Positions 24,168 through 33,100 of a DNA stretch of 34,503 nucleotides are shown in pieces; position 1 is the stretch's first letter, and the number at the start of each line of letters is the position of its first letter. The stretch covers positions 1 through 34,503 of the forward strand of contig CAZCRK010000012.1 in assembly GCA_964501035.1 (NCBI GenBank). Reading direction: 5' to 3'. Position numbers: made by a program.

Positions 24168-27100
24168 CAGGCCAATTAAGAACCTTGACAAGTCCGAAAA
24201 TTTAGAAACAAACACCCTTATTGACCACGAAAAAAATCTATTATTTTCAAATAAATAATTTCTTTCAAAATGAAAGTCGTTTTAAGTTACCCTCTCGAAG
24301 GGGAGTAGAAATTGAAAGTTATACTTGCAACACATAATAAGGATAAACGAAAAGAGTTAGCAGATTCATTTGCAGACCTAGGTTTAAACATCCTTTCCTT
24401 AGATGATTTTCCACAGGTGGGTGACATTGTTGAAGATGGTTCAACTCTCGAAGAAAATGCACTCATTAAAGCACGAGAAGTGTACCGATTGACAGGATAT
24501 CCAGCAATATCAGACGATACAGGTCTTGAAGTAGATGCATTGGATGGTAATCCTGGAATATATGCTGCAAGATATGCAGGAGAAAATTGTTCATATTCAG
24601 ATAATGTAAATAAATTGATTTTAGAAATGAAGGAAGTTTCTAAGAACAAGCGGTCTGCAAAATTTAAAACAGTAATGGCTTTTGTGGATGGTAAATCGGA
24701 ACTTGTTGCAAAGGGAGAAGTAAAAGGTGAGATTACTGAAACTGCAAAAGGTGTTGGGGGATTTGGATATGACCCCGTATTTTACTACCCTAAATTGAGG
24801 AAAACTTTTGCTGAAATGAGTTTGATAGAGAAAAAAAGTATTTCTCATAGAGGAAATGCCATGAGACATTTAAAAGAAAAATTAAAAACATATTTATCAA
24901 TTCAGAATCATTCTGTTTCAAAGGAGCACGCCTAGAGATTTATTGCTCCAGTTGTGATTAAAACATCTAAAATATACTCAATTTTACTAAAGTGGTTTTT
25001 TGCTTTAGTGGGATTATTATTACCACCAATTCTACTGGCAGGTGAAGGAAACCCTGCACTGTATTTTGACAGGTCAATTCATTATTGGAACTGGTTGCCC
25101 CAAATTGTTCAACCTTTAGAAAACAATGAATTTAAAACCCTATCGTTGAAAAGTACACACCAGCTTAAACACTTGCATGGTATAAACACATTTAAAAAAG
25201 TTACCAATCTAAAGTCAAATAGCGAACTGGGGTTGATTGACAACACATTAGTTTTATACAAACGATATAGTAATGAAGATTTATTGATTCCATCTATAAT
25301 GACATTTGATTGGTATAAAGAACAATCAATTTTAGCGAATCAGATTATCCAGTTTAGAAAAAAAATTATTCAACATTATACTCGGCGAAGGAATACCCAA
25401 AACTCTCACCAAGGTTCAGCAATAAGTTTGATAAATAAACAGATTGGAAATACCAATGTCGCATTGAATATCAAGGGAAATATTTCGATAAACGGTCAGA
25501 TGATTTTTGAAGATAAAGACAATATTGCGTTGAATAGTCAAGAAAATAAATCTTGGGATTTGGACATTAACCAAACTCAAAAGTTTAACATTGAGGGGAT
25601 AATTGGTGAGAAGTTGAAAATAAAAGTAGATCAAGATTCGGAATCTGATTTTGCATGGGAAAATAATCTTCTATTGGAGTTTGACGGAGACGATAATGAT
25701 ATCATTCAAAATATTGTTGCAGGGAATATCAGCTTAAATTTACCATCAACTCAATTTGTGAGTGTAGGTTCTGGTAATCACGAAGGGTTGTTTGGAATTA
25801 AAATGACCAATCAATTGGGACCACTTTCTATTCAAACTATTGTTTCAAGAGAGCAGGTTCGAAAATCCGGCCGGTCGATGAGTGGTGGCGAAATGTCGGA
25901 AGAGACATCTATAAATGACTATTCATTTATTAAGGATAGATACTTTTTTATTGATGAAGATTTTAAACGAAATTTTTATCCTCTTTTACCCGATTACAAA
26001 CATACATTTGAAAGTGAACATGTAATTGGTGAGTATGAAGTGTTTAAGCGTGTAACAGGTTATAATTCATTGGAAGTTGGTATTTATAAAGGTACCGCGT
26101 TTAAGAATCCACTCGATTCGACGAGCTTTAGTGATGATGGTAATTGGAAACGATTGACTGAGGGTGTAGATTATGAGATTGATCCATTTTTAGGGTATAT
26201 GAGATTGAATACTCCAGGAAGCAGTGATGTGGTTGGTATTCATTATAAACTAGCTGAATATTTTGCTGATTCAACCGAACAATTTATACTGTATGAAGAC
26301 CCATTGTTTTCAACTGGCACAAATATTGATGCTCTCTTAAATTACGAAGATTATGATGTGTGCTTGAATGATAATGGATGCACTTCAAATGATTCGCTCT
26401 TAGTTGTTGATGTAGATTTTACAGATATAAATGGTGATAATATATACACCGCTCCACCAGAAATAGCTCTAAAATTGATTAAAACCCAGGGGACATCTAC
26501 TCCAAATTCTGAAACGTGGCCACTTATGTTTAAAAATGTTTATTCATTAGGGGGGTCTGGTATCGATTTGAATTCCCTGGAAGTGGAAATTGTTCATGCT
26601 GGAGGTGATTTGGGAACTGAAACTCACAGTGATGAAGGACATTCTTTTCTCTCAATATTTGGACTAGACACTCTTGATGTAAATGGTAATTATATTCCAA
26701 ATGGTGACGGAAAGATAGATTTGCACGGTAGTTTGATAAATCAAAAATATGGTGAGTTATTTTTACCATTTTACTTACCATTCGCATATGATAATCCTGA
26801 TGATAGTAATGCAGATGTTTGGGGAAATAATCATAATGATTTAAGTGGGATTATTGAAGCTGAATATAATGATTCTGACAACAGTTTTGATAGTGATGAT
26901 AGTGGTCCTGCAATGTATTATTCGAATACCAATCAAGATATTACTGAAGAGCATGAATTCCAAATAGTCGTAAAAAGTTCTGCGCGGTCTTCAACTATGT
27001 CACTTGGATTTATGATAGTCGAAGGCAGTGAACAAGTTGTCTTAAATGGTAGAACTCTGGTGAAAAACGTAGATTACACCATCGATTATTTTTCAGGAAC

Positions 27101-30100: not shown

Positions 30101-33100
30101 ATTGATGTTGATTTTTCAATAAAGAAAACTACAAAATCATCTACTACAGTGGAAAATGAAGAAACAATTGATTCTGACTTTTCAGCAAATTATCAAGTGA
30201 ATTTTAACAAGGATAATTATATTTCACCTTTCAAAATTGCTGAAGATGTTCCTCTAATTGGAAAATCTTTATCTGAAACAAGGTGGTATTTTTCACCTGA
30301 AAAAATAAAAGCGACCATTAAAATTGATGACCACGATAAAATATCTTTTCAAAGAAGTGGTACAGTAACGCAAGATACTAGCATGGGCATGACACGAACA
30401 TTTTTGATTAATTATAAGTTAACAGAAAGTTTGCAATCCAATTATAATAATAGTATTCAAAGTAATTTAACAGCATACATGAGTGATAAATTTGGTTTTA
30501 TTAGAGATATGAATCCGGGTGTAATTAAATCCTTAACAGAGAATTTTTCAAATACATTTTCTCCCAATTTTATGGATTGGCTTAAACCAAAATTTACCTA
30601 TAATCCAAAATACACATGGAATTTAGTAAACCAAACAGATTCCATTCCTTCAGCAAATGTATCGAACAATAGTAAGTTAACCGCTTCATTTAATTTTTCT
30701 CCGAAAGAATTGGTTGAATTAGTATATAAACCGGAAAACTCTGCAGGGTCTTCAAGGTCATCAAGCAGGCGTGGGAGGAGAAGAACAAGTAGACAGGAAG
30801 AACAAAAACAAAAACGATTAGAAATTAAGAATCCAACATTAAAAGCTATTTTTAATTCTATACACAAAGTTTCGTCAAAAGTTTCTAAGGTTAATTTTAA
30901 TTATAATTTTAGTTCAACACATTCACATAGTAATATTTTCGCAGATTTAAGTCCTAGCTATTGGTATCGTTTGGGATTGTGGTCGGATCCTTTTCAAACG
31001 AGTTCTTACTATAATTTAGGGGATGGTCAAGTTGGTTCTTATTCTCACTCTTACACACAAGATTACAAGATAAGTACTAGTATCAATTTGACATCTAAAT
31101 TAACACTTACAAATATGGAATATAAAAATTCTGTAACAACCAATTTATCGTCATCAAGTGACCCAACTGTAAATATTACAGAGACATTTTTGCCGTTAGG
31201 ATTAACAGGTAATGATGGAATACCCATTTTTGGATGGTCTATCAATTTATCTGGATTTGAAAAGTATGGATTCTTCAAAAACTGGTTGAAATCCCTTAGT
31301 TTTTCACATACGTACAAAGGTGAAAGAACGGAATCTTTTAAAAATGATGAACAACAAAAATTAGATTTTACACGATATTATTCACCATTATTTGGATTAG
31401 TAGCAAAAACAAAGGGGCGTAATTCAGTTACCTTTAAGTTAACCTATAATATGAAATTAGACATAAATAATACAGGTACTCAAACAGAACGAGAGTATAA
31501 AAATCAGTTAACAAGTTCATTAGATTATAAAAAATCAGGGGGTTTAAATCTACCAATATTTTTCTTTAGAGATTTTGTAATTGAAAATGATATTGATTTC
31601 AGGTTAGATGTGTCATATGATAAAAACTACACTTTGTTTTCATATGTAAATGCAAGCGATATAAATGAGTTTGATCTAACATCTTTTTCAAATTCAATTA
31701 GTATAAAACCTCGAATTAATTATAGTTTTACTCGCTATGTAGATGGTGATGTATATTTTAACTACATTATATCTGATAATAATTCTGTTGGAAAGAAAAC
31801 TGAAAAGAATTTTGGATTTACAGTCAAAATTAAAATTCAAGGATAGAAAAAATTAAATAGTATGAGAATAAAATTAATTATATTGTGTATCAATTTGACG
31901 ACTCTATTGGGGCAAGGAATTCCATATTTTAATGGGCAAAATGCAATGAAGTACTTAGTGGCACAATGTGATTTAGGGCCACGATATCCAGGTAGTGAAG
32001 GGCATTCTTTAGCACGAGAAATGTTTATTTCACATTTTAATCAATTTGCAGAAAAAATAATGATTATGGATGTAACAATCCCACATCCCTATTCTAGTGA
32101 TTCGCTTGCTCTTACAAATATTATGGCACGGTATAATATGTCTGCAAATCAACGGATCATGCTCATGGCTCACTGGGATACCCGTGCAATAGCTGATATG
32201 GACCCTGACTCAACGAACCATAATACACCAATAATAGGTGCAAATGATGGAGCAAGTGGTGTAGCAATTTTAATGGAGTTAGCACAAATTTTAAGGGACT
32301 ATCCATTAACAAATTTGGGTGTTGATTTATTGCTAGTGGATGGTGAAGACATAGGTAAAGCTGGTGATGCAGACAATTTTGGTTTAGGAACAAAAGAATT
32401 TGCACAAAATATTCCTGCACCTATTCCCAATATGGCAATTTGTTTAGATATGGTTGCGGATAAACATCCAAGATTCCCTATTGAAGTGAATTCATATTTC
32501 CAAGCACAGTTTTTAGTAAAAGAAATATGGTCAATTGCACATCAACTTGGATATGATGAATTTGAAAATTCATTTGGTAGGGCAATAACTGATGACCATA
32601 CGGTACTCTATAAATATAGTAAAATACCATCAATTGATATCATTGATTTTGAATACCCTTACAAAGGGGAAAATTATTGGCATACCCTTGAAGATACCCC
32701 TGAAAATTGTTCCGCAGAAACATTGGGTATGGTGGGAACTGTTGTTACAACATTTCTGTATCAAAAGGATCAGCAATGAGTAATGGTAGAACATGGGATA
32801 TTCTAGTTTTAAAAGGCGAATCAGAAAGTGTAAGTATTTTCACATCATTCATATCTGATTTTATTTTAGGAGTAAATACGGACAGTAAATCATCGAAAGT
32901 ATGCCTTTCTGAAAATGCTAAGGAAAATGTTGAAAATTTGCTGAGTCAATGGCAACAAAAGTTAAAGTTACATATAACTTGGGAAGTTGTTGAGGATGCT
33001 AATTGGCACCTTGCTTGGAAAGATAATTTTACTCCAGTAAAAGTTGATGATAAAATTGTGGTTGTTCCAGATTGGGATACAAACGTCTATGATTGTAAAC

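What a model noticed while it worked through the whole genome (the two positions that open the first line are those of the whole stretch)
24936..32779. Type IX secretion with translocon, shuttles, regulator and >30 cargo proteins but no PorK/L/M/N (GldK/L/M/N) motor-ring [...]
The genome encodes the SprA/Sov translocon (one ~2300-codon gene C12:24936-31846 broken only by a 100-N scaffold gap; only its end was called, g00592), followed by a glutaminyl-cyclase-like M28 protein (g00593), four PorV/PorQ-family barrels, the response regulator PorX (g01172) and at least 31 proteins with the T9SS C-terminal sorting domain. Yet none of the four genes that form the trans-envelope motor and ring in every studied T9SS - GldL/PorL, GldM/PorM, GldK/PorK, GldN/PorN - can be found, here or in the genomes of the phylum that were searched. 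Either the T9SS of Fidelibacterota is energised in another way or its motor has diverged beyond recognition.
Evidence so far: Frame: call 13; SprA_N Pfam on g00592 and six-frame hits in 382 of 401 phylum genomes. PorX NF052313 equivalog E 1e-196, PorV/PorQ x4; Por_Secre_tail on 31 genes. Six-frame HMM searches of this genome (95.7% complete): GldM_1st PF12081 none at E<=1, GldL TIGR03513 none at E<=1, GldN TIGR03523 none, PorP/SprF PF11751 none, GldK TIGR03525 only the generic FGE-sulfatase part, 98 bits against a cut-off of 350. GldM TIGR03517: 0 of 121 Fidelibacterota genomes. Positive controls: the same GldM and GldL searches ring over cut-off in both Bacteroidota genomes tried (Bernardetia, Sphingobacterium; E 1e-38 to 1e-105) and in none of three PorX-bearing MAGs of Fibrobacterota, Chlorobiales and Chitinivib [...]
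(Added by a program. Inside this text positions count along the whole contig: contig position 1 is position 1 of the stretch shown here. "Call 12" and the like, gene names such as g00115 and contig names such as C1 are that model's own, and its searches are not shown. The text may have been shortened before it was handed on; [...] marks where a part breaks off. The agent that wrote the report below was given it as the finding of a first reader that could run no searches.)

Follow-up and report, generated by a model that had tools for sequence, protein, structure and literature searches.

The report
Type IX secretion without its motor
This marine bacterium carries the outer-membrane half of the type IX protein secretion system (pore, shuttles, sorting enzyme, dozens of cargo proteins) but none of the motor-and-ring genes thought to power it, and the same holds for whole related phyla, which questions what the motor is needed for.

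Summary
Window 24954-31846 is one SprA/Sov translocon gene of about 2298 codons. It is interrupted only by a 100-N scaffold gap, which public contigs bridge with 104 in-frame bases. A glutaminyl-cyclase homologue follows it.

The genome also has PorX, four PorV/PorQ-family barrels, a short PorU-like sortase and 37 proteins with a type-A CTD. GldK, GldL, GldM, GldN and PorP are not found.

With positive controls (8 of 8 Bacteroidota genomes for each family), none of the five is found in 12 or 13 other genomes, two of them single-contig. GldL and GldM each gave 0 of 201 Fidelibacterota genomes, while 197 of 201 have SprA. GldM gave 0 of 101 Fibrobacterota genomes, while 98 of 101 have SprA.

So this is not a Fidelibacterota oddity. 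It is the usual state outside Bacteroidota: the outer-membrane module is there and the porPKLMN module is missing. Divergence beyond recognition is unlikely, because SprA and PorU keep 25-50% of their scores.

The only PMF motor left in the two most compact genomes is ExbB-ExbD-TonB. How export is energised remains open.

One 2024 paper notes the same pattern for Ignavibacteria in a single sentence. I rate it a new variant of a known kind, of moderately high interest.

The parts
24312..24935 (+). rdgB/Ham1 NTP pyrophosphatase. A housekeeping gene, but the conserved upstream neighbour of sprA in Fidelibacterota.
   Evidence: Ham1p_like 214.8 bits. The order rdgB -> sprA -> M28 is seen in 6 of 6 Fidelibacterota loci compared.
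24954..29277 (+). SprA/Sov translocon gene, part before the gap (1441 codons, GTG start, signal-peptide-like N-terminus).
   Evidence: TIGR04189 480.5 bits, cut-off 200. 75% identical to residues 1-1419 of the same-genus SprA.
29278..29377 (.). 100-N scaffold gap inside sprA. The real sequence is 104 bases, in frame.
   Evidence: N run read. Contigs of X1, X2 and X3 join 29277 to 29378 with 104 letters between. About 35 residues are missing against the G018 orthologue.
29378..31846 (+). SprA/Sov translocon gene, part after the gap (822 codons plus stop).
   Evidence: TIGR04189 184.6 bits on profile positions 1370-1966; SprA_N 51.8 bits. 84% identical to residues 1468-2272 of the G018 SprA.
31862..32779 (+). 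Glutaminyl-cyclase-like M28 protein, the conserved downstream neighbour of sprA.
   Evidence: Peptidase_M28 98 bits. Full-length matches to solved glutamine cyclotransferases 6qro, 6qql, 7cje and 4fuu, E 1e-41 to 1e-50. Synteny in 6 of 6 Fidelibacterota loci.
33603..34469 (+). Lipoprotein of two beta-sandwich domains, function unknown. It recurs in the sprA cluster of Fidelibacterota. The gene between it and the cyclase (32707-33606) is prmA, a housekeeping gene.
   Evidence: Lipobox-like N-terminus. Homologues lie beside sprA in 5 of 6 loci: the window, L116, L117, and more distantly L107 and L109. AlphaFold model pLDDT 73.6. Foldseek returns only generic Ig-like folds.

Best explanation
The window encodes an intact SprA/Sov translocon. 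[quoted passage not shown] This form has SprA, PorV/PorQ-family shuttles, a PorU-type sortase, a periplasmic glutaminyl cyclase, the regulator PorX and about 37 CTD cargo proteins. It truly lacks the porP-porK-porL-porM-porN module, and that is the normal state in FCB phyla outside Bacteroidota.

Proposed working (inferred):
1. Cargo crosses the inner membrane by Sec, and the N-terminal Gln is cyclised.
2. SprA recognises the CTD and the cargo passes through its barrel.
3. The cargo is handed to a PorV-family barrel.
4. The PorU-like sortase removes the CTD and anchors or releases the protein.

Direction would come from capture by the shuttle, from folding outside the cell and from the irreversible cleavage. 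This is a ratchet, as in other outer-membrane secretion routes that have no energy source of their own. No dedicated GldLM-type motor is involved.

What is shown: which genes are present and absent, their conservation and their synteny. What is inferred: that the system secretes, and how it is energised.
For: SprA is real and whole.

The module is absent, with controls. GldM, GldL, GldN, GldK and PorP are each over the cut-off in 8 of 8 Bacteroidota genomes. There they lie side by side, for example G209:C3:141525-146095. None is over the cut-off in the other genomes: 0 of 12 for GldM, GldL, GldN and GldK, and 0 of 13 for PorP. The others include single-contig G134 and G186.

Phylum samples. 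In the same Fidelibacterota sample, GldL gave 0 of 201 over the cut-off and GldM 0 of 201 at E <= 1e-3, while SprA_N was found in 197 of 201 and in 141 of 141 high-quality genomes. In Fibrobacterota, GldM gave 0 of 101 and SprA 98 of 101. G186 has no FGE-sulfatase domain at all.

The other T9SS parts are found easily:
- SprA: 665 bits here against 2354-2730 in Bacteroidota, about 25%.
- PorU: 575-629 bits in G186 and G134 against 1080-1267, about 50%.
- PorX: 650.6 bits.
- At the same score retention GldM would still give about 80-140 bits (inference).

Independent looks at this genome found nothing:
- HMMs I built from four Bacteroidota loci, run without filters, scored at best 15.2, 8.1 and 6.4 bits.
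- A GldL transmembrane motif gave 0 hits in six frames, against 3-4 of 4 controls.
- No gene pair has a GldL/GldM-like membrane topology.

The system looks old and vertically inherited. On a 17-row SprA tree each phylum is one side of a branch with 100% support, and local synteny is conserved within each phylum.

Cargo is abundant: 37 CTD matches over the cut-off. For Fibrobacter succinogenes, a proteomics paper proposes CTD-dependent surface display and reports that the CTD is missing from mature enzymes (PMC6851124, passages read).
Against: Absence rests on sequence models trained on Bacteroidota. A non-homologous or very divergent inner-membrane partner would not be seen.

No secretion experiment exists for Fidelibacterota. 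No RNA evidence was obtained.

In the studied systems the motor and ring are essential. [quoted passage not shown] A motor-free SprA system therefore runs against current experimental knowledge.

The own-genome PorU-like protein is short (701 aa) and below the equivalog cut-off (308.8 against 420 bits). The PorV-family barrels do not reach the PorV or PorQ equivalog cut-offs. G024 has no PorU match at E <= 1e-30.

PorW/SprE, PorT, PorE, PorG and the Plug protein were not searched.
Confidence: 0.55

Rival explanations
1. The SprA system is energised by a proton-driven motor shared with other functions, the ExbB-ExbD-TonB complex, in place of GldLM.
For: G186 (single contig) and G024 (1.1 Mb, 4 contigs) both have SprA. 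Each has only one MotA/ExbB/TolQ-family gene, of the ExbB type. It sits in an exbB-exbD-exbD-tonB operon that is conserved with this genome. It is therefore the only recognisable PMF motor present in all six Fidelibacterota genomes examined (G000, G018, G006, G134, G186, G024). In two of the four PorV-family loci of this genome a TonB-dependent-receptor-like gene lies just upstream of the CTD-protein and PorV-family gene pair.
Against: ExbBD-TonB is near-universal in diderm bacteria, so its presence says nothing specific. No TonB box or plug domain was shown in SprA or the PorV-family proteins. The operon is not linked to any T9SS gene. The receptor genes beside PorV-family genes are more simply read as nutrient-uptake partners of surface cargo.
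Confidence: 0.15
2. A trans-envelope energiser exists but is not recognisable. It would be either GldLM/GldKN diverged beyond the reach of HMMs or an unrelated, undescribed complex.
For: GldL is small and half of it is low-complexity (alignment). All models used were trained on Bacteroidota. Several conserved proteins of unknown function sit near T9SS genes. These are the lipoprotein at 33603-34469, a roughly 285-aa barrel next to a PorV-family gene, and a 900-1100-aa protein upstream of PorX. In 4 of 5 Fibrobacterota loci a membrane-anchored protein with a small FGE-sulfatase-like domain (the PorK fold family) lies directly upstream of sprA.
Against: Five families vanish together in about 300 genomes, while SprA, PorU, PorV-family and PorX stay easy to find. 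Unfiltered custom HMMs, a motif scan and a topology scan found nothing in this genome. The sprA-linked cluster encodes only predicted periplasmic or outer-membrane proteins. The Fibrobacterota FGE-like protein has no orthologue here, and G186 has no FGE-sulfatase domain at all. The lipoprotein model matches only generic Ig-like folds.
Confidence: 0.2
3. The motor genes are there but were missed because the genome is an incomplete, fragmented MAG.
For: The genome has 167 contigs and is 95.7% complete. Both FGE-sulfatase (GldK-like) genes lie at contig ends.
Against: The result is the same in two single-contig genomes, in two relatives rated 100% complete (one of the same genus, one of the same family), and in 0 of 141 high-quality genomes of the phylum sample. 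Orthologues of the contig-end gene in G134 and G006 have no gldLMN-like neighbours.
Confidence: 0.01
4. The SprA homologue outside Bacteroidota is not a protein-export pore for CTD cargo but does something else in the outer membrane.
For: Its score on the Bacteroidota model is only about a quarter of that of true orthologues. No experiment exists in this phylum.
Against: It occurs together with 37 CTD proteins, PorV-family barrels, a PorU-type sortase and PorX. In four relatives a CTD-protein gene and a PorV-family gene lie a few genes downstream of sprA.
Confidence: 0.05

Closest known systems
Type IX secretion system of Bacteroidota (Porphyromonas gingivalis Por, Flavobacterium johnsoniae Gld/Spr)
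   Same: SprA/Sov translocon over the family cut-off, PorV/PorQ-family barrels, a PorU-type sortase, the response regulator PorX, type-A CTD cargo and a PgQC-like glutaminyl cyclase.
   Different: No PorP, PorK/GldK, PorL/GldL, PorM/GldM or PorN/GldN. SprA is shorter (about 2070-2300 aa against 2350-2470) and keeps about 25% of the model score. The PorV-family members do not reach the PorV or PorQ equivalog cut-offs.
SprA-PorV-Plug set of Ignavibacterium and Melioribacter (PMC11705866, one sentence, passages read)
   Same: [quoted passage not shown] This is the same motor-less pattern.
   Different: That note covers two genera in an oral-microbiome database. It gives no analysis of cargo, sortase, PorX, energy source or other phyla. 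Here the pattern is shown for 201 Fidelibacterota and 101 Fibrobacterota genomes, with PorU, PorX and many CTD proteins retained. I did not search for the Plug protein.
Proposed T9SS of Fibrobacter succinogenes (PMC6851124, passages read)
   Same: The CTD (TIGR04183) on surface enzymes is proposed to be the sorting signal and is missing from the mature proteins. Fibrobacterota genomes have SprA and PorU.
   Different: That paper did not examine the machinery. In my sample no Fibrobacterota genome has GldM (0 of 101). I could not tell whether F. succinogenes itself is in the unnamed sample.
TonB-ExbB-ExbD and other 5:2 PMF motors (MotAB, TolQR, GldLM)
   Same: They couple the inner-membrane proton motive force to outer-membrane processes. 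ExbBD-TonB is the only such motor left in the compact genomes G186 and G024.
   Different: No link to SprA has been shown. That GldLM belongs to this motor class is recalled knowledge, not tested here.

Membership tests
SprA/Sov translocon (TIGR04189) | Whole-protein score over the curated cut-off (200 bits) on a single protein of more than 2000 residues | tested here: met
   480.5 + 184.6 bits on consecutive parts of the profile. One frame of about 2298 codons across the bridged gap.
Complete Bacteroidota-type T9SS | PorL/GldL and PorM/GldM inner-membrane motor | tested here: not met
   None at E <= 10 in this genome. 0 of 201 in the phylum sample for each. 8 of 8 Bacteroidota controls positive.
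Complete Bacteroidota-type T9SS | PorK/GldK and PorN/GldN periplasmic ring | tested here: not met
   GldK best 98.5 bits against 350, and only on the generic FGE-sulfatase part. GldN none. Panel: 8 of 8 Bacteroidota positive, 0 of 12 others.
Complete Bacteroidota-type T9SS | PorP/SprF barrel (first gene of the porPKLMN cluster) | tested here: not met
   PF11751: 8 of 8 Bacteroidota positive, 0 of 13 others, this genome included.
Complete Bacteroidota-type T9SS | PorV shuttle and PorU/PorQ/PorZ attachment complex | tested here: inconclusive
   Four PorV/PorQ-family barrels: three over the subfamily cut-off, none over the PorV or PorQ equivalog cut-offs. PorU-like protein 308.8 bits against 420; G134 and G186 are over the cut-off. 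PorZ gave only a weak 22.5-bit C-terminal match.
Complete Bacteroidota-type T9SS | Cargo with a type-A C-terminal sorting domain | tested here: met
   39 matches, 37 over the cut-off.
Complete Bacteroidota-type T9SS | PorX response regulator | tested here: met
   650.6 bits against a cut-off of 300. PorX is followed by tsaE in 38 of 43 loci across phyla.
Complete Bacteroidota-type T9SS | PorW/SprE, PorT/SprT, PorE, PorG, Plug | not tested
Type II (animal-like) bacterial glutaminyl cyclase, PgQC-like | Full-length similarity to solved Bacteroidota glutaminyl cyclases; catalytic activity | tested here: inconclusive
   Sequence similarity is met: E 1e-41 to 1e-50 over residues about 20-301. Activity cannot be tested here. 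A crude count shows Gln enriched after signal peptides (25.2% against 9.0%).

The most novel reading that the evidence does not exclude
Protein export through SprA needs no dedicated trans-envelope motor or ring. The ancestral T9SS of the FCB superphylum would then be an outer-membrane-only translocon, shuttle and sortase system that still serves whole phyla (Fidelibacterota, Fibrobacterota and others). The PorP-K-L-M-N rotary module would be a later addition within Bacteroidota, perhaps linked to gliding, to coordinated surface attachment or to high-throughput secretion.
Probability: 0.4. Interest if true: 0.8.

Novelty: new variant of a known kind. Interest (0 to 1): 0.6.

Why it matters
Current models treat the PorLM motor and the PorKN ring as core parts that supply the energy for type IX secretion (PMC12365241, abstract). 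Reviews say the T9SS occurs across the FCB superphylum without noting that the machinery differs outside Bacteroidota.

If whole phyla run SprA, PorV, PorU and dozens of CTD cargo proteins without that module, then one of three things holds. Translocation through SprA may be motor-independent. It may borrow another energy source. Or an unknown machine may exist. Each answer would change how the motor's role is understood.

The question can be tested in culturable motor-less organisms such as Fibrobacter succinogenes, Ignavibacterium, Melioribacter and Fidelibacter multiformis.

For ocean biology, Fidelibacterota (SAR406) are abundant, and their surface enzymes and adhesins appear to depend on this route.

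Tried and rejected
- FGE-sulfatase (GldK-like) genes at two contig ends (C117, C2) as the start of a hidden gldKLMN cluster. 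Rejected: orthologues in the closed genome G134 and in G006 have unrelated neighbours. G186 has no FGE-sulfatase domain at all, and G024 only one weak match inside a 757-aa frame that no GldK or C117-protein search picks up.
- Weak GldL matches in 23 of 201 phylum genomes (26.4 bits or less). They fall on the low-complexity half of the model, inside 376-1257-aa frames. The one I examined is homologous to a protein of this genome that I read, from its sequence, as RmuC-like with a coiled coil. Treated as spurious.
- Topology scan for a small two-helix protein followed by a long single-pass protein. There were 22 candidates. The only two such pairs look like LapA/LapB and SecG plus a TPR protein; this is my reading of the sequences, not an HMM result.
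- The MotA-MotB-FliG cluster (G000:C1) and the MotAB-like cluster near ftsB and amiC (G000:C16) as substitute motors. Neither is present in G186 or G024, which both have SprA.
- Conserved neighbours of sprA. In Fibrobacterota they are RNase G/E, L21, FolP and FtsH, all housekeeping.
- The lipoprotein at 33603-34469 was folded (pLDDT 73.6). Foldseek against the PDB gave only generic tandem Ig-like matches and no T9SS protein.
- Expression: no RNA holder was listed.
- Literature. Searches for T9SS together with Marinimicrobia, Fidelibacterota, Fibrobacter or other FCB phyla found no paper that analyses a motor-less T9SS, apart from the one sentence in PMC11705866. Subscription journals are not covered, and I did not open any supplements.

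Full report
**1. What is in the window**

An open frame runs from the GTG at 24954 to 29277 (1441 codons). A run of 100 N follows at 29278-29377. A second open frame runs from 29378 to the stop at 31846 (822 codons). The two pieces match consecutive parts of the SprA/Sov model TIGR04189, at 480.5 and 184.6 bits against a cut-off of 200. Pfam SprA_N gives 26.1 and 51.8 bits.

Against the SprA of a same-genus genome (G018, 2272 aa) the pieces align to residues 1-1419 (75% identity) and 1468-2272 (84%). About 35 residues are therefore hidden in the gap. Contigs of three of the four public runs laid (X1, X2, X3, from three studies) join 29277 to 29378 with 104 letters between. One leftover base plus 104 is exactly 35 codons, so this is one gene of about 2298 codons. 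I did not see all 104 letters, and one of the runs may be the sample the window came from.

The neighbours are as follows.
- Upstream lies rdgB/Ham1 (24312-24935).
- Downstream lies an M28 protein (31862-32779). It is a full-length homologue of solved Bacteroidota glutaminyl cyclases, E 1e-41 to 1e-50.
- Next come prmA and a lipoprotein of two beta-sandwich domains (33603-34469).
- The rest of the window holds housekeeping and peptide-uptake genes.

**2. The rest of the system in this genome**

| Component | Result |
|---|---|
| PorX | 650.6 bits, cut-off 300 |
| PorV/PorQ-family barrels | four: 202, 169, 165 bits (subfamily cut-off 90) and 85 bits; none reaches the PorV or PorQ equivalog cut-off |
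| PorU-like sortase | 701 aa, G000:C60:7561-9666; 308.8 bits against 420, matching the C-terminal 600 positions of the model |
| Type-A CTD | 39 matches, 37 over the cut-off |

**3. The absences, with controls**

In this genome GldM, GldL and GldN give nothing at E <= 10. GldK gives at best 98.5 bits against 350, and only on the generic FGE-sulfatase part of the model.

I assembled a panel of 20 genomes:
- eight Bacteroidota;
- seven other FCB genomes, found through PorX or SprA (one Delongbacteria, one Chlorobiales, four Fibrobacterota, one Chitinivibrionales);
- five Fidelibacterota, two of them single contigs.

This genome (G000) was added for the PorP and PorU searches, which makes 13 non-Bacteroidota genomes there.

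| Family | Bacteroidota over cut-off | Other genomes over cut-off |
|---|---|---|
| SprA | 8 of 8 | 12 of 12 |
| GldM | 8 of 8 | 0 of 12 |
| GldL | 8 of 8 | 0 of 12 |
| GldN | 8 of 8 | 0 of 12 |
| GldK | 8 of 8 | 0 of 12 |
| PorP/SprF | 8 of 8 | 0 of 13 |

In the Bacteroidota genomes these genes lie side by side.

In a sample of 201 Fidelibacterota genomes:
- GldL is over the cut-off in 0. Twenty-three genomes have weak matches of 26.4 bits or less.
- GldM matches in 0 at E <= 1e-3.
- SprA_N is present in 197, and in 141 of the 141 high-quality genomes.

In 101 Fibrobacterota genomes GldM matches in 0 and SprA is over the cut-off in 98.

The PorU sortase is over the cut-off in 15 of 21 genomes: 7 of 8 Bacteroidota, 6 of 7 other FCB genomes, and G134 and G186. 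The window's own family has a shorter form of about 300 bits. G024 has no match at E <= 1e-30.

**4. Is the motor merely too divergent to see?**

This is unlikely, for four reasons.
- Bacteroidota-trained models still give SprA about 25% of its Bacteroidota score and PorU about 50%. PorX scores 650.6 bits here. At such retention GldM (313-549 bits in the controls) would still score about 80-140 bits. This is an inference.
- Five families vanish together.
- HMMs that I built from four Bacteroidota loci and ran without filters over my 1771 ORFs scored at best 15.2 (GldL), 8.1 (GldM) and 6.4 bits (GldN). A GldL transmembrane motif has no hit in six frames, against 3-4 of 4 controls. No gene pair has the GldL/GldM membrane topology.
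- Assembly gaps are excluded by the closed genomes and by the neighbours of the FGE-sulfatase orthologues.

A non-homologous partner cannot be excluded by these means.

**5. What could supply energy?**

This genome has three MotA/ExbB-family loci:
- an exbB-exbD-exbD-tonB operon;
- a cluster of MotA, MotB and FliG with unknown proteins;
- a MotAB-like pair near ftsB and amiC.

G186 and G024 both have SprA, and each keeps only the ExbB type, in the same operon. ExbBD-TonB is therefore the only recognisable PMF motor common to the six Fidelibacterota genomes examined. Nothing links it specifically to SprA.

The sprA-linked cluster in Fidelibacterota runs rdgB, sprA, cyclase, lipoprotein, CTD protein, PorV-family barrel, a second barrel and a YibQ-type deacetylase. 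It encodes only predicted periplasmic or outer-membrane proteins.

**6. History**

On a 17-row SprA tree, Bacteroidota (6 rows), Fidelibacterota (6) and Fibrobacterota (4) are each one side of a branch with 100% SH-aLRT support. The root is not known, and only the N-terminal piece of this genome's SprA was used. Local synteny is conserved within each phylum, and PorX is followed by tsaE in 38 of 43 loci across phyla. This fits old, vertical inheritance of the outer-membrane module. The porPKLMN module would then have been either added in Bacteroidota or lost elsewhere. The tree cannot say which.

**7. Literature**

- Abby et al. 2016 required the gld genes in their model and found the T9SS only in Bacteroidetes (PMC4793230, passages read).
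- Bochtler et al. [quoted passage not shown]
- A 2024 paper lists further FCB phyla where T9SSs 'may also be present' (PMC11285876, passages read).
- Raut et al. 2019 proposed CTD-dependent display in F. succinogenes without examining the machinery (PMC6851124, passages read).
- One sentence in a 2024 survey says that Melioribacter and Ignavibacterium have PorV, SprA and Plug but no other T9SS protein (PMC11705866, passages read).
- Gorasia et al. 2025 propose that PorLM turns the PorKN cogwheel and so provides the energy to complete secretion (PMC12365241, abstract read).
- The description of Fidelibacter multiformis calls it non-motile and does not mention secretion (PMC11652737, term search only).

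Eight searches found no paper that analyses a motor-less T9SS. Subscription journals and supplements were not covered.

**8. Verdict**

The best reading is an outer-membrane-only T9SS variant that truly lacks the porPKLMN module (confidence 0.55 for the whole statement, ratchet mechanism included). The rivals are a hidden or non-homologous energiser (0.2), ExbBD-TonB (0.15), a different function for SprA (0.05) and an assembly artefact (0.01).

Because the pattern has been mentioned once in print for another lineage, I rate it a new variant of a known kind, with interest 0.6. Its value lies in making the role of the T9SS motor testable in natural motor-less systems.

Noticed in passing
G000:C1:13880-20580 (L006:2880-9580): A cluster of two single-pass proteins without any family match (302 and 204 aa), a TPR protein (447 aa), MotA, MotB, a 451-aa protein without any family match, and FliG (all three FliG domains). 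Two further genomes (G018 and G134) have similar 268-273-aa MotA-type matches (their neighbouring genes were not read); G186 and G024 have none. I did not check whether other flagellar genes exist.
   Followed up: partly
G000:C42:621-8532 (L009); L023-L044: PorX is preceded by a CHASE2-domain adenylate/guanylate cyclase and by a 620-1130-aa protein without any family match. In this genome a FecR-like protein is also there. The cyclase is present in 19 and the unknown protein in 18 of the 23 Fidelibacterota PorX loci. PorX is followed by tsaE in 38 of 43 loci across FCB phyla.
   Followed up: partly
G000:C58:1451-10510 (L010) and G000:C18:16910-24008 (L011): Two gene triads, each made of a TonB-dependent-receptor-like protein (1175 and 1224 aa), a large CTD protein and a PorV/PorQ-family barrel. 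They may be nutrient-uptake units whose surface partner is delivered by the T9SS.
   Followed up: no
L111, L112, L114, L115 (Fibrobacterota and Chitinivibrionales sprA loci): A membrane-anchored protein of 362-404 aa lies directly upstream of sprA in 4 of 5 loci. It ends in a small FGE-sulfatase-like domain, the fold family of PorK. It has no orthologue in the window's genome.
   Followed up: partly
whole genome G000 (my ORF set): Gln is the first polar residue after the hydrophobic core of 25.2% of 337 signal-peptide-like N-termini. The background is 9.0% among the eight residue types that can end the core. This crude count hints at a Bacteroidota-like 'Q-rule', in keeping with the cyclase gene beside sprA.
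   Followed up: partly
window 21096-22550 (-) and 22634-23629 (+); also G000:C1, C18 and C64: Several secreted-looking proteins end in a type I dockerin domain instead of a T9SS CTD. No cohesin partner was looked for.
   Followed up: no
G186 and G024 (Fidelibacterota): Each has only one MotA/ExbB/TolQ-family gene, so no separate TolQ is recognisable in these diderm genomes.
   Followed up: no
window end (34503) and G000:C64: By synteny with G018, the window's contig probably continues into C64 (CTD protein, PorV-family barrel, roughly 285-aa barrel, YibQ-type deacetylase). That would make one sprA-linked cluster.
   Followed up: partly
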